Source: Eledone cirrhosa (Eukaryota). Taken from it: DNA of 64,000 bases. Below, piece by piece: positions 23,359-48,391 of this stretch. The DNA is taken from assembly GCA_964016885.1 (NCBI GenBank), contig OZ024754.1, forward strand, positions 16,678,001 to 16,742,000, in the 5' to 3' direction. Positions within the stretch are counted from its first letter, which is position 1; every line of letters begins with the position of its first letter. The translations under genes and the position numbers were made by a program. The notes under the pieces are model-generated. The model was not told where the DNA came from. It was given only the letters and a program-made list of their open reading frames with translations, and searched no databases.

Positions 23359-25399
23359 ACTAGGGTCAATCTGATTGACTAATCCATCCCCCAAAATGTG
23401 TGGTCTTTTCCCACCAATTATAATTTGGATTCTAAAGAAGTTATTATAACCCAGACACTTGTCAGATTATAAATAGAAACTTGTCTGATATATATAAAAC
23501 ATTAATTAATAACATCCATTTGTTGAACATAAGTATTGTAATGTAAGAAATTTCTTAAGTTAATAGTTTTGAATTTATTACGTATTAGAATTTTAGTCAA
23601 ACCATTTTTTGTTTCTATAATTCTAATGAAAAAACAAAAAAGTTGATGCTTTTCAATTAATTTTGGAAACAATCAAGAATTTAGCAGGATTTAGTAATAT
23701 AACTTTCTCATTATTAAACTAGTGTTTATAGCATTAATATAAATTCTGACATAAAATTATGATGGAAAATTTTTAGATAAAAAAAAAAACAAAAAAAAAA
23801 ACAGTTTCTAATGAAAGAGACTATCATGATTTTCAAATAATTTTGAAAATACTCAAAAATTTGGATGGATTTAGTAATATAACTAACTTTCTCATTATTA
23901 AGCTGGTGTTTGGAACATAACTTAACTTTTTCACATTTACATTACTCTATATTTACTATTATATTTTCATGGTAAAATCTTTACCTCACATAATTATCTC
24001 ACATGATATCAAGTCTATGGGATTTTGGTATTACTTATTTTGAGAACAATACCTTAACATCTGTATGAAGGGCCAATTTGAACAGACAGAGGTAAGAGAA
24101 TTCTGGCTGGATATGGCTGGTTTAAATGCTAAAGGGTTAACAAACCCTTATACATAGAATTATGATGGAAGGGTTTTAGATAATTATTAAACACTTTCAT
24201 ATAAGCAATTTTATATCATAGAACCAAGGGTACTTTCAGGTAGTTTGATATCAAAATCACTAAAATTTAGGTGTGTGATTAATCTGTATGCACCAAAGCA
24301 ACATTGAATTTCCCTTTTCTGTTTGTTTCTAAAATCATTTAATTATCAAAAATTTAGAGAAACACTGTCTTTTTGAGCAGTTGGTGTTCTCCTGGTGATT
24401 TCATAGCTGATACTATCCACTATTCAAACAGCTTGAGTATATCTCTTTAAAAGAAAGTAGCCAATCATCAGATCTGACCAAGGAAACTGTTTACATTGGT
24501 CATTTCATAGCTGGTATTATCTAGTGGTTACAACACCTGGCTGAAGATGGCAGAATTCCACAGGACCAGATCAGATACTAACTCATGAATAGTTCTGCAA
24601 ATCCACGGCCTCATGACTGGTACTTTAATATCACCAAATAAGATGAAAAACAAAGTTGACCTCAGCAGGATTTGAACACAGAGAGCAGTGATGAGCCAGA
24701 GTAGATACTGAGACCCTAATGACTCTCGCAGTTTGCCATCTTGGATTGTACAAGATGAACAAAAAAAGCAACAATTTTTCTTTAAAATAATTTAAAATTG
24801 GGATTTTGAATCATCATTCATCATCATTTCATTTTACGTCCGCCTTTTCCCTGCTTGCAAGGGTGGGACGGGAACTGATTCTGGCTTGATTTCTACAGCT
24901 GGATGCCCTTCCTAACACCAACCTCATTTACAGTGAGTGCTGGGTGCTTTTTTACCGTGCCACCTCCATGACCACTTTGCAGTGGAATGATATGAACCCC
25001 AGTCCCTATCATCTCATTTCTACAGCTGAGTAAACTGGAGCAATGTGAAATAAAGTGTCTTGCTCAAGGAAACAACACATCACCCGGTCTGAGAATTGAA
25101 CTCACAACCTTTCGATTGCAAGGCCAATGCTCTAACCACTAAGCCATGTGCCTCCACAAAGATTTTACAATCATTTTAGATTGATCGAAATGGTTATTTT
25201 GAGTTTTTGTTACATATATCGTCATCATCATCGTCATCGTTTAACATCTGCTTTCCCTGCTAGGGTCAGGCAAGTCATTAACAAGAGAGAGAGAGAGAGA
25301 GAGAGTATATATAAGAAAATTTAATTTCGCTGTTCTCACTCTACTTATGTATTGAGTACCTTATTTACTGTGGTTACCCCCGATTTCACCTGGGATCTA

Positions 25400-25434: not shown

Positions 25435-25494
<60 letters not shown>

Positions 25495-25963
25495 GTGTAT
25501 ATATATCTATATGTATATGTATATATATATGTAATATATATATGTAATATATATATGTTTTATATATATATAAATATATATATATAGTTTATATATATAT
25601 ATATATGTCATATATATATATATATATATATATGTAATATATATATAATTTATATATATATATATGTAATATATATGTAATATATATATATATATGTAAT
25701 ATATATATATATATATGAAATTTATATATATATATATATGAAATTTATATATATATATATATATGTAATATATATATTTATATATATATATGTAATATAT
25801 ATATATATGTCATATATATATATATATGAAATTTATATATATATATATGAAATTTATATATATATATATATGTAATATATATATTTATATATATATATAT
25901 ATGTAATATATATATAAATATATATATATATATGTAATATATATAAATATATATATATATATG

Positions 25964-26002
<39 letters not shown>

Positions 26003-26023
26003 ATATATATATATATATATGTA

Positions 26024-26054
<31 letters not shown>

Positions 26055-26262
26055 ATATATATATATATATATATGTAATATATATATATATATATGTAAT
26101 ATATATATATATATATATGTAATATATATATATATATATATATATGTAATATATATATGTATATATGTAATATATATATATATATATATATGTAATATAT
26201 ATATATATATATGTAATATATATATATGTAATATATATATGTATATATATATATGTTATATA

Positions 26263-26304
<42 letters not shown>

Positions 26305-26371
26305 ATATATATATGTAATATATATATGTATATATATATATGTATATATATATATGTTATATATATATATG

Positions 26372-26402
<31 letters not shown>

Positions 26403-26403
26403 G

Positions 26404-26442
<39 letters not shown>

Positions 26443-26478
26443 ATATATATATGTATATATATATATGTTATATATATA
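25400..26478. repeat. Long imperfect (TA)n microsatellite; similar tracts at 27783-28400, 30529-30917, 32738-33345, 33962-34380, 35260-35582, 39250-40040, 41840-42555, 54983-55930
   Basis: Direct observation. Confidence 0.98.
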
Positions 26479-26791
26479 CCTTTCATTTATATATTTATAC
26501 TCGGATTTCTTTGCTAGAGTGCTTAAATTATTTGTGACTAATCCCGGTATTTTTTTATAAAAAAAAAAGCAATAATATTGCTTTTTGCTGAACTCCTTAT
26601 TGTAAAGTTTTTTTCGGAATGTTTTTGACTGTTGTTTCTTGTAAACAAACATTCGTCTGATTCTGACGTCACCAGCCCTGTCTTTCCACATGTGCGTTTT
26701 ATTTTCATAATCACGCATCATGGTGAACTAGCCTGCTTTTAATTCCCTTTTTGGCATATTAATCAGTGAGAAATTTCAGTTATCGAGTTGA

Positions 26792-26868
26792 GCTCTGCTG
26801 AGGATCGAATTCCAACCGTGACCATCTCTGAAAGTTTTCGTGAAATAGTCTTCAAGACTATATAGAGC
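26792..26868 (+). ncRNA. Type I hammerhead ribozyme with full stem III, inside a non-coding module (~26480-27120)
   Basis: GCTCTG-CTGAGGA-T-CGAA...TTCG-T-GAAA-TAGTCT(TCA)AGACTA-TA|TAGAGC; predicted cleavage after 26862. Confidence 0.85.
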
Positions 26869-27131
26869 ATTTGTAGTTTTTCCAAATTGAAGGATGAGTA
26901 TTTTAAACTTTATTTTATCATGAGTTAAGGCTCTATCGATTTTTCCCTGGATTTCACTAAATTCTGTTGAATGAATCTATATCCTGATTCTCTTTGAATT
27001 GAGTTTGAATTATTTTTCCCACATCTTACGTTAACTATTTTTCCCATTTTAACGCTATAATCACTTATATATTATGGAATACTGTTGGCTTTTTGCTACA
27101 ATATTTTCTATACCTTTCATTTATATATATA

Positions 27132-27174
<43 letters not shown>

Positions 27175-27190
27175 TATATGTAATATATAT

Positions 27191-27453
27191 AGTAATAATA
27201 ATAAATTTGAAGACTAAAATACAAAGAGGGCTCGATAAGGATAAATATATATCAAATATATAAGAACCGTAGTAATATATGTAATATATATATGTATATA
27301 TATATATTACATATATATTTATTAAAATAACAGATTAAAGTTTAAACAAAGAATCGCTGCTTTCACCCTTAACGGGATCTTCTGAAACTAACAAAGTCAA
27401 TCTGTAAACGCAGAAGTGGATATTTCAAAAACTTTGGTTCGTGGAAACGTTCG
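27191..27453 (-). mobile_element. Solo copy of the Penelope pLTR (direct repeat of 31573-31832) with variant hammerhead at 27331-27404
   Basis: Closely matches 31573-31832 apart from indels. Confidence 0.85.
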
Positions 27454-30587: not shown

Positions 30588-31141
30588 ATATATATATTTA
30601 TATTAAATATATATATTTATATTAAATATATATATTTATATTATATATATATATTATATATATATTTATATTAAATATATATATTTATATTAAATATATA
30701 TATTTATATTATATATATATATTATATATATATTTATATTAGATATATATATTTATATTATATATATATATTATATATATATATATATTATATATATATT
30801 TATATTAAATATATATATTTATATTATATATATATATTATATATATATTTATATTATTATATATATATTTATATTATATATATATATTTATATTATATAT
30901 ATATATATATATATATAGTTATGTAATAAACAACATAAGGCAATTATTTCATTTACCAGTGGTTTCTTAAAAGCAAAAAAATGTTGCTTTCAATCATCAG
31001 AATGAAAAAATCCTGGTGTATTTATTGACGTTGGATTTTAAAAACAAAAATGCAATCTATATGAAAGTGACGCTGGAAAAGGAAGAAGGAAAGGAAAAAT
31101 AAAATAAAAACACACATGCAAACACACACACAATCATATAC

Positions 31142-31572: not shown

Positions 31573-32710
31573 TAGTAATAATAATAAATTTGAAGACTAA
31601 AATCCAAAGAGGGCTCGATAAGGATAAATATATATCAAATATATAAGAACCATAGAGCAAATATTTATTAAAATAACAGATTAAAGTTTAAGCAAAGATT
31701 CGCTGCTTTCACCCTTAACAGGATCTTCTGAAACTAACAAAGTCAATCTGTAAACACAGAAGTAGATATTTCAAAAAACGTTGCAACCGGAGGAAGACAG
31801 GAAGACGATACTTTGGTTCGTGGAAACGTTCGCTATGCAAATAAGTAATGGTATAAACAAAACATATACTTAGCTCCCACATCAAGACGTAAAATATCCA
31901 CGTATAAATCGTACTATCCGTTAGGATATAACGTGGTGCTGTAATACAGGAAAGTTTTGTGCAATTTATGTTTACAAGCCGAAATTGCCTCAGATTTTTT
32001 GTTTAAGATGTGGTCTATGGCGTAGAGTATTTCCAGGGCCTCAGCGGCGCAGAGGTCACATGGTCTTTTATTTCCGTTATACGATCTAGCCCTAGCTAGG
32101 ATCTCCCAGTGTAACTTATATTGGGTGTGGTTGTCTTTTAGACTCCAGATATAAGCTGAAAGTGACGTCATATTCCTTCTTAGAGGGTAACAAAAAGAAT
32201 GGGTATGCATGTAAAGACGCTGCTTGAATCTATTGGCGGTTAACCCTATGTAGGCCCTACGGGACGTGGGTGTTACAACCTTACATTTGTAGACAATGTT
32301 ACTAGAGAGGCATTTCCCGGATAGGGGGCAATCAATCCGATTCCTACAATTACAGTTAGTACTAACTACAGGGTTGCACGTGTTCCTACGGCTAGGTAGT
32401 TTAGCTAAATTTGAAGCTGTGATGTTATGTGCAAGGTTAGGAGTCGTAGAGTAAGAAATTTTAATAGTATTTCTATTAAAAATTTTACTATATTTATGTG
32501 TAGGGAGAAAATGCTTCGTAATAAGGGAGAGAAAGATCTTAGCTAAAGGTGTGGCCACCTCCATATTATATGGTGGGTTATACCAACAAATGCGACGGGA
32601 TCTATTTCTTCTAGGTCTATTTTCGTACTATGTATATGCTACCTTATCGACAAATCCACTTTGAGCAAGAGCTTCATTGTAATAAGTGGAATGGTCGTTG
32701 AAAATATAGT
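31573..32710 (-). mobile_element. Penelope-like element 3' portion: GIY-YIG endonuclease plus pLTR
   Basis: KIFNRNTIKISYS...CNCRNRIDCPLSGKCLSSNIVYKC...YIGLTANRFKQRLYMH...TSLSAYIWSLK...CDLCAAE...LNKK (ORF 31914-32564); pLTR ~31573-31900. Confidence 0.93.
31677..31750 (-). ncRNA. Variant type I hammerhead (A4 core) in Penelope pLTR
   Basis: Minus strand: AGTTT-CAGAAGA-TCCT(GTTA)AGGGT-GAAA-GCAG(CGAATCT)TTGC-TT|AAACT, with a distal stem CAGATTGA/TTAATCTG. Confidence 0.6.
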
Positions 32711-35782: not shown

Positions 35783-36821
35783 AAGAGTATATAGTATAAA
35801 TAGGAGTTGCTATGTGAATGGTTCCAAACTGTATTGATCTCTTCTATTGGGCAACATCAGTGACAGGTAATCAAGATTAGTATGCATGGGCAAATGCTTG
35901 TCTTCTACACAAACACAAAAGAACATTCCTTGCTCAAGTTTGTGCCTTGGAGAGGAACTTTGCAGCTGCAACCCCGTAGTCAGCCCCTACAAAGGATGCC
36001 TTATTTATTGTGTTATTACCAAAAGAAAAGAAAAACAACCTTTTGTAGTATTTTCTGTTTTCATAAAACATGTCCACAGTCAGTATTAATATTTATTATT
36101 TATGTTCAGTATCTTTACAATGTTACCTTCAGCATGTAGCCTCAGGATTTATTTGTGTGTGTATGTGTATATATCTATATATCATCATCATCATCATTCC
36201 ATTTTATGTCCGCTTTTCCCTGCTTGCAAGGGTGGGACGGGAACTGATTCTGGCTTGGTTTCTACAGCTGGATGCCCTTCCTAACACCAACCTCATTTAC
36301 TGTGGGTGCTGGGTGCTTTTTTGCCGTGGCACCTCCACAACCACTTTGCAGTGGAATGATAGGCACTCCAGTCCCTATCATCTCATTTCTACAGCTGAGT
36401 AAACTGGAGCAATGTGAAATAAAGTGTCTTGCTCAAGGAAACAACACATCACCCAGTCTGAGAATTGAACTCACAACCTTTCGATTGCAAGGCCAATGCT
36501 CTAACCACTAAGCCATGTGCCTTCATATGTGTGTATATATATGTATATGTGTGTATGCATATGTCAATATATGTAATTGCTTCTACTTTTGGCACAAGGC
36601 CAGCAAAATACTCAGTACATTACTGGTACTTCATTTTATCGACCCCGTAAGGATGAAAGGCAAAGTTAACCTCGGCGGGATATATATATAATGTACATAT
36701 ATACATGTATGTATATGTATGTATGTATATATGTGTGTATATGTGTATGTATATATGGATATATATATTTATATACACTTTTATAAAGTTATATCTATAT
36801 AAATACTAATAAATATAATTA

Positions 36822-42370: not shown

Positions 42371-42893
<523 letters not shown>

Positions 42894-48322: not shown

Positions 48323-48391
48323 ATATATTTTATCTGATGAAAACGTACTGAAACACCATTGTACCTTTGAAATATGTATAATAAAATATAT
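48323..48391 (+). ncRNA. Type I hammerhead ribozyme, canonical core
   Basis: ATATATTTTAT-CTGATGA-AAA-C-GTAC(12 nt)GTAC-C-TTT-GAAA-TATGTA-TA|ATAAAATATAT; perfect 11-bp stem I; predicted cleavage after 48380. Confidence 0.85.

What the first reader, a model, noticed from the sequence alone, without database searches (positions are those of the whole stretch)
26792..26868. Best candidate for a monomer-active hammerhead
It has an intact core (CUGAGGA/GAAA/AUA), a 6-bp stem I and, unlike the minimal ones, a stable 6-7 bp stem III (TAGTCT/AGACTA), so it should not need dimerisation. The stem II base is U-U followed by CGAA/TTCG. The host module has no recognisable ORF.
Basis: partly seen in the sequence, partly recalled or inferred. 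Interest (0 to 1): 0.75.

Follow-up and report, generated by a model that had tools for sequence, protein, structure and literature searches.

The report
Braced hammerhead ribozyme in jumping repeat
A hammerhead self-cutting RNA motif sits in one slightly decayed copy of a 634-base non-coding repeat found over 2,000 times in this animal genome; the family carries an unusually long extra helix that likely braces the ribozyme, this copy has partly lost that helix, and cutting is untested.

Summary
The motif is real: a type I hammerhead with intact core, 6-bp stem I, U-U plus 4-bp stem II, 6-bp stem III, predicted cut after 26862. It lies in a 634-bp ORF-less unit with at least 2,276 core-intact copies, from solo insertions to a ~46-unit array. 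Copies share a 3' end at (TA)n, have variable 5' truncations and form partial tandems: a non-LTR retrozyme, likely moved by a Penelope-like element (partner not found). Across subfamilies the core and stem III never change, N7 varies and stems I and II covary, so the ribozyme was under selection. This copy is not the best candidate: three private changes weaken that helix (15th weakest of 134), make a G-U pair at the cut and open a rival fold for stem III. A published U-U hammerhead cut poorly as a monomer. Cleavage and expression are untested. The scan noted shorter (7-bp) loop II/5'-flank pairings in other genomes, and no look-alike of this sequence.

The parts
26475..27121 (+). One insertion of the retrozyme-like repeat: a 634-bp unit (26480-27113) plus a short terminal overlap; 32% GC, no ORF
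   Evidence: 5' edge ambiguous by about 4 bases with the TA tract
25435..26478 (.). (TA)n microsatellite, 5' side of the insertion site
27122..27191 (.). (TA)n microsatellite directly after the family's fixed 3' end
26764..26790 (+). 5' strand of the predicted flank/loop II helix P0: CAGTG 26764-68, (TG>CA)GTTA 26777-82, CG 26784-85, GTTG 26787-90
   Evidence: the change at 26777-78 occurs once in the genome
26792..26797 (+). Stem I, 5' strand
   Evidence: two pairs with double-sided changes
26798..26804 (+). Core C3-A9 (CUGAGGA); N7 at 26802 is the one variable core position
26805..26841 (+). Stem II (U-U, then CGAA/TTCG) closing a 27-nt loop II (30 nt in the subfamily); the loop holds the 3' strand of P0 (CAAC 26813-16, CG, TGACCA 26819-24) and lacks 3 nt after 26827
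26842..26845 (+). Core G12-A15.1 (GAAA)
26846..26860 (+). Stem III, 6 bp plus A15.1-U16.1, loop TCA; stem invariant, loop length variable among subfamilies
26861..26863 (+). U16.1, A17 and predicted scissile bond 26862/26863; base 26863 is C in 126 of 130 aligned units and T only in this copy
26863..26868 (+). Stem I, 3' strand
26869..26887 (+). Possible small hairpin 3' of stem I (ATTTG/CAAAT); conservation only, no covariation
   Evidence: 82% of cells paired

Best explanation
This is a type I hammerhead motif inside a 634-bp non-coding repeat family with the insertion pattern of a non-LTR retrozyme, likely copied by a Penelope-like retrotransposon, and the family's ribozyme likely cuts as a monomer with the help of a long loop II/5'-flank helix that this decayed copy has partly lost. 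Shown: motif, copy number, tandem and partial-tandem layout, fixed 3' end at (TA)n, 5' truncation, selection on core and stems. Inferred: tandem units are transcribed; the P0 helix forms first during transcription and holds the far ends of stems I and II together as a pseudoknot, making up for the weak U-U stem II and the large loop; cuts one unit apart release ~634-nt monomers that are circularised or stay partly uncut; a Penelope-type RT/endonuclease copies such RNA into (TA)n tracts. The window copy is one ordinary solo offspring (about 3% from its subfamily) with one ribozyme, so it could not release a monomer on its own, and is predicted to cut more slowly than intact copies (my odds: some cleavage at 10 mM Mg2+ about 0.6, fast cleavage at 1 mM about 0.25).
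For: 2,276 matches to the core-plus-stem III pattern, 0 for the reversed control; 5,092 matches to the 3' end; array of about 29.6 kb on C2. 70 of 75 insertions end at unit position 639-641 and 5' ends are scattered. Among 4 subfamily majorities built from loci found without hammerhead letters, 0 of 34 core, stem I and stem III columns vary against 89 of 478 elsewhere (p=0.001), and N7 varies. On 30 copies stem I shows G-C>A-U and U-A>A-U, stem II C-G>U-A. P0: 17 pairs, 91-98% of cells paired per segment, U-A>C-G in 3 rows and G-C>A-U in 8 rows with 5 G-U intermediates; duplex median -17 kcal/mol, z below -2 in 102 of 134 copies scored (162 examined), and loop II of one copy prefers this flank (-20.7) to any other window of its unit (-11.4); paired columns vary in 3 of 27, linkers in 9 of 15 (p=0.001). 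Pseudoknots between stems I and II are needed for speed in other hammerheads (PMC3088659). A young RT-bearing family that ends in (TA)n is present.
Against: No cleavage or expression data. No Rfam hammerhead match. P0 covariation rests on about two evolutionary events; 11 of 93 helices of 3 bp or more that hold in all subfamilies also show a double-sided change, most of them probably chance, and P0 columns are not better conserved than the rest of the unit (p=0.24). Full P0 leaves only a 6-nt linker back to stem II, which may be too short. Nested folding gives stems I and II probabilities near 0 in the whole family. 69 of 75 insertions run through the cut site and only 1 starts at it, so nothing in the DNA proves cutting. 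No autonomous element sharing this 3' end was found. On a crude total-energy gap the window copy is mid-ranked (50 of 113), which softens the claim that it is impaired. Eight of nine Xenopus retrozyme dimers did not cut in vitro (10.64898/2026.07.22.740005).
Confidence: 0.7

Rival explanations
1. P0 is a brake or switch, not a brace: the long helix forms during transcription and keeps stem II from closing, so most RNA stays uncut and can be copied across the site. The window copy, having lost part of P0, would then cut as well as or better than intact copies.
For: P0 dominates the nascent 5' part (-21.2 kcal/mol in L009); a 6-nt linker is short for a 17-20-bp helix; 69 of 75 insertions span the cut site and 5' truncations gather just 3' of P0 (13 in 2,688 bases at risk against 31 in 17,002, p=0.005).
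Against: P0 uses no core, stem I, II or III base, so it does not sequester the ribozyme; its inner segment sits where activating pseudoknots sit; spanning the site is equally explained by re-ligated circles; the truncation test window was chosen after seeing the data and TA microhomology is not controlled.
Confidence: 0.2
2. One reading: the 77-nt motif of this copy is an efficient stand-alone monomer because stem III is stable, and the flank does not matter.
For: Intact core; stems I and III form in the isolated 77-mer; fungal Penelope hammerheads with a large helix III cut as monomers, 0.16-1.97 per min (PMC4209133); U-U is the best tolerated mismatch at 10.1-11.1 (PMC3088659 section 8).
Against: G-U at the cut, U-U plus 4 bp closing a 27-nt loop, stem II not formed in the isolated fold, rival hairpins take stem III and the core in the 121-nt construct; axolotl U-U precedent.
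Confidence: 0.2
3. A satellite or orphan pseudo-LTR repeat in which the hammerhead is a dead relic.
For: Long arrays with alternating unit variants suggest unequal crossing-over; single copies carry core mutations (9 in 642 cells).
Against: Invariant core, free N7 and compensated stems between subfamily founders; dispersed 5'-truncated insertions; one subfamily has copies 0.5-1.3% from its majority.
Confidence: 0.07

Closest known systems
Non-LTR retrozymes of animals (Cervera and de la Pena 2020, PMC7229834; Li, Clavereau and Pollet 2026, 10.64898/2026.07.22.740005)
   Same: ORF-less, low-GC unit with one type I hammerhead per unit; monomers, dimers and long arrays; coexists with Penelope-like elements.
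   Different: Unit is 634 bp (150-450 bp in the 2020 paper, 51-972 bp in the 2026 preprint); 6-bp stem III, 27-30-nt loop II and the long flank helix; circular RNA not shown here.
Axolotl HHR_Amex2 (PMC7229834, section 15)
   Same: Type I, U-U at the base of stem II, in a tandem retrozyme.
   Different: Its stem III is 2 bp; here 6 bp. No long loop II/flank helix is described for it in the section read.
Pseudoknot-braced hammerheads of all three types, including the human C10 hammerhead (Perreault et al. 2011, PMC3088659)
   Same: Watson-Crick pairing that links stems I and II in place of loop-loop contacts; U10.1-U11.1 variants.
   Different: Pseudoknots named in the passages read are 4-6 bp; here about 17 bp in three to four segments using nearly all of loop II. 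That paper left the repetitive type I motifs out of part of its pseudoknot survey.
Hammerheads in pseudo-LTRs of Penelope-like elements (Cervera and de la Pena 2014, PMC4209133; Craig et al. 2021, PMC8557442)
   Same: Partial-tandem layout, 5' truncation, (TA)n bias; a large helix III resembles the fungal and protist variants.
   Different: Metazoan ones are minimal with tiny palindromic helix III; no RT/GIY-YIG frame is attached to this family in the loci examined.

Membership tests
Type I hammerhead ribozyme | Core C3 U4 G5 A6 N7 G8 A9 / G12 A13 A14 / A15.1-U16.1, H17 | tested here: met
   0 of 12 core columns vary among subfamily majorities, N7 does
Type I hammerhead ribozyme | Three helices with open stem I, supported by covariation | tested here: met
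   double-sided changes in stems I and II; stem III invariant with variable loop
Type I hammerhead ribozyme | R10.1-Y11.1 pair at the base of stem II | tested here: not met
   U-U here; A-U in other subfamilies; U-U is a known natural variant
Type I hammerhead ribozyme | [quoted passage not shown] | tested here: inconclusive
   P0 helix predicted and partly covarying; whether it is compatible with the active fold was not testable
Type I hammerhead ribozyme | Match to an Rfam hammerhead model | tested here: not met
Type I hammerhead ribozyme | Site-specific self-cleavage | not testable with these tools
   needs in vitro assay
Non-LTR retrozyme | Tandem repeats with a type I hammerhead in each unit | tested here: met
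   (family level; the window copy is a solo monomer)
Non-LTR retrozyme | No coding frame, GC below 50%, no LTR arrangement | tested here: met
   GC 32%, longest ATG frames 25 and 96 codons
Non-LTR retrozyme | Expressed as linear and circular monomer RNA | not testable with these tools
   no run on record as RNA was listed
Non-LTR retrozyme | Target-site duplication | tested here: inconclusive
   both flanks are usually (TA)n, so a duplication cannot be read
Non-autonomous derivative of a Penelope-like element | Fixed 3' end, 5' truncation, partial tandems, microsatellite target | tested here: met
Non-autonomous derivative of a Penelope-like element | Sequence shared with the pseudo-LTR of an autonomous element | tested here: inconclusive
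   one young RT-bearing family tested, no shared 3' end; 0 of 30 loci picked by the 3' end showed a shared unique upstream part; other families not tested
Minimal (dimer-type) Penelope hammerhead | Absent or tiny palindromic helix III | tested here: not met
   6-bp non-palindromic stem III

The most novel reading that the evidence does not exclude
An animal retrozyme family uses a type I hammerhead whose whole 30-nt loop II is read by the 5' flank in a ~17-20-bp segmented helix that folds before the catalytic 3' half is made: the inner segments brace stems I and II while the outer segment must open, giving a built-in folding timer that sets how much RNA is cut, circularised or copied uncut.
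Probability: 0.25. Interest if true: 0.65.

Novelty: new variant of a known kind. Interest (0 to 1): 0.4.

Why it matters
Hammerheads in animal retrozymes are well known, so the class is ordinary. What is fresh is the architecture: a long stem III in an animal element and a loop II/5'-flank helix about three times longer than the pseudoknots in the passages I read. How Penelope-linked hammerheads, which cut poorly in vitro, are tuned is an open question; this family offers natural variants (A-U or U-U stem II base, intact or damaged helix, compensated pairs) that make brace versus brake directly testable. It also shows why short-loop models such as Rfam miss such motifs.

Tried and rejected
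Rfam scans found no hammerhead. No RNA holder was listed for the unit; two contig sets of unrecorded kind hold the family with the same variant sites and say nothing on expression. Idea that insertions start at the cut: 1 of 75 does; 17 exact (TA)4-cut-site junctions exist but a TATA microhomology sits there, and by hand count only 5 of 28 distinct loci in the first 100 rows start at the cut; rejected. Within-insertion versus between-insertion divergence did not separate circular from read-through templates. Mutual information over all columns was dominated by relatedness. The extended stem I predicted for the window copy is not kept in other subfamilies. Flank/loop II pairing in three other hammerhead families of this genome was not better than shuffles (median z -0.9, -0.2, 0.4), so it is not counted as support. 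The window's variants are not a subfamily: 1 match for the flank change, and the second match for the deletion is unrelated DNA. Pfam found nothing on five Penelope-like fragments and only a weak RVT_1 match on a longer frame. Lunse et al. 2017 was not held. In one search, 15 redundant loci were dropped before counting and one locus (L041) was mis-chained.

Full report
Observation. Stem I is 6 bp with a G-U pair next to the cut, the core is CUGAGGA/GAAA/UA, stem II is U-U plus four pairs closing a 27-nt loop, stem III is 6 bp plus A15.1-U16.1, and the predicted cut follows A26862. A strict descriptor finds this one motif in the window and none in 200 shuffles. Rfam misses it, probably because of the large loop II (inference).

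Host element. The 641 bases between two (TA)n tracts match many places of the 3.0-Gb genome at 92-96%. The unit is 634 bp, 32% GC, without a coding frame. Exact patterns give 2,276 copies with intact core and stem III, 2,441 with the loop II motif and 5,092 3' ends, with 0 matches for each reversed control. Of 75 insertions picked by a motif outside the ribozyme, 70 end at the same 3' position, usually followed by (TA)n, while 5' ends are scattered; many are a full unit behind a 5'-truncated one. Arrays exist, one of about 29.6 kb or 46 units. This is the layout described for Penelope-like elements and their non-autonomous derivatives (PMC8557442, passages) and fits the definition of non-LTR retrozymes (PMC7229834, passages and sections 14-15; 10.64898/2026.07.22.740005, parts 1-3 of 5). 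Subfamilies lie at median 1.3-4% from their majorities, so spread was recent. A young RT-bearing family ending in (TA)n is present with open frames up to about 1,200 codons, but its 3' part is unrelated, so the partner stays unidentified.

Selection on the ribozyme. In 130 aligned units N7 is G, T or C (69, 50, 10) while the other core positions are at least 94% constant. Using only loci found without hammerhead letters, 0 of 34 core, stem I and stem III columns differ among four subfamily majorities, against 89 of 478 in the rest of the unit (p=0.001). Stem I shows two compensated pairs, stem II several, the base of stem II is U-U or A-U, and loop III changes length while its stem is fixed. 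The older subfamilies were partly found with a pattern that demanded the core and stem III, so only their stem I, stem II and flank changes count as evidence.

Loop II is conserved and is complementary, in colinear antiparallel order, to the 28 bases before stem I: GTTG/CAAC, CG/CG, TGGTTA/TGACCA and CAGTG/CACTG (helix P0). On 30 copies chosen to span subfamilies, 91-98% of cells pair per segment; one pair goes U-A to C-G and one G-C to A-U through G-U; slid controls pair at 32-41%. The duplex has a median of -17 kcal/mol and z below -2 in 102 of 134 copies scored. Paired columns vary far less than the linkers between them. Limits: about two independent compensations, a chance background of such changes (11 of 93 short helices), and no better conservation than the unit at large (p=0.24). 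P0 crosses stems I and II, so with them it is a pseudoknot; it uses no catalytic base, and its inner end joins the tips of stems I and II, where activating pseudoknots act (PMC3088659, passages and section 8). I rate P0 as real at about 0.75 and as a brace rather than a brake at about 3 to 1. The 6-nt linker after the outer segment may force that segment open in the active fold.

This copy. It differs from its subfamily majority by 18 substitutions or insertions and 4 deleted bases, a typical 3%. Three events hit the ribozyme: C to T at 26863 (1 of 130 units), TG to CA at 26777-78 (unique) and a 3-base loss in loop II (unique). Its P0 duplex is -11.5 kcal/mol, 15th weakest of 134; its stem III probability in context is 0.18-0.44 against a family median of 0.99 in 113 copies, because of a rival hairpin over the cut site. 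Against this, a crude sum of hammerhead and duplex energies ranks it in the middle (50 of 113), and nested models cannot score pseudoknots. With a single ribozyme it could not release a unit-length RNA.

Monomer activity. A long stem III removes the classic need for dimers, and fungal Penelope hammerheads with large helix III cut as monomers (PMC4209133, parts 1-2 of 4). But the axolotl motif with a U-U stem II base cut 22% in an hour as a monomer and much better as a dimer, and 8 of 9 Xenopus retrozyme dimers did not cut. The genome gives no proof of cutting: 69 of 75 insertions read through the site, so templates were circular, re-ligated or uncut. 5' ends are enriched between stem II and the cut (p=0.005, post hoc, microhomology uncontrolled), which fits RT stalling at folded RNA.

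Novelty. Six paper searches turned up no description of this family or of a flank/loop II helix of this length; subscription papers, Lunse et al. 2017 (title only; not held) and supplements were not seen. PMC6765202 was read in passages. The scan holds no look-alike of this sequence, many notes on scrambled hammerheads in this genome and two unchecked notes on 7-bp loop II/5'-flank pairings in Penelope hammerheads of other genomes, seen after I had found P0. Verdict: a real hammerhead in a new retrozyme family, a new variant of a known kind; the family's intact copies, not this one, are the ones to assay. Interest 0.4.

Noticed in passing
window 30947-31007 (-) and 31917-32627 (-): A second type I hammerhead (7-bp stem I, long stem II, CCACTGG loop III) lies about 900 bases downstream of a 237-codon frame that looks by eye like the C-terminal part of a Penelope-like protein; Pfam gave no match.
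   Followed up: partly
window 42597-42662 (-) and 42787-42852 (+); 48323-48391 (+): Type I hammerheads with palindromic TATATA/TATGTA helix III; the first two form an inverted pair, as in inverted 5'-truncated Penelope insertions.
   Followed up: no
fetched loci, about 900 kb: 72 further type I hammerhead-like motifs of roughly a dozen unrelated families, so this genome is very rich in them.
   Followed up: partly
L097, L122, L123, L134, L176, L182, L209: A family with C-A at the stem II base, a ~35-nt loop II and a conserved GAGAA/TTCTC flank/loop II complement next to stem I; not better than shuffles.
   Followed up: partly
L221-L250: A young RT-bearing family (97-98% protein identity among 121 scored copies, open frames up to 1,218 codons) ending in (TA)n, with a minimal hammerhead-like motif in its 3' part seen by eye.
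   Followed up: partly
window 25089-25146 (-) and 36454-36517 (-): Two identical-looking tRNA-like stretches near Rfam's threshold, probably heads of a tRNA-derived SINE.
   Followed up: no
L052-L057, L093, L134-L137: Tandem arrays of the family show alternating unit variants (higher-order repeats); some units in older arrays have lost core bases.
   Followed up: no
window 26774-26779 with 26828-26833: The two private substitutions in the flank make TTTCAG, the exact reverse complement of CTGAAA in loop II; possibly a template-switch mutation.
   Followed up: no
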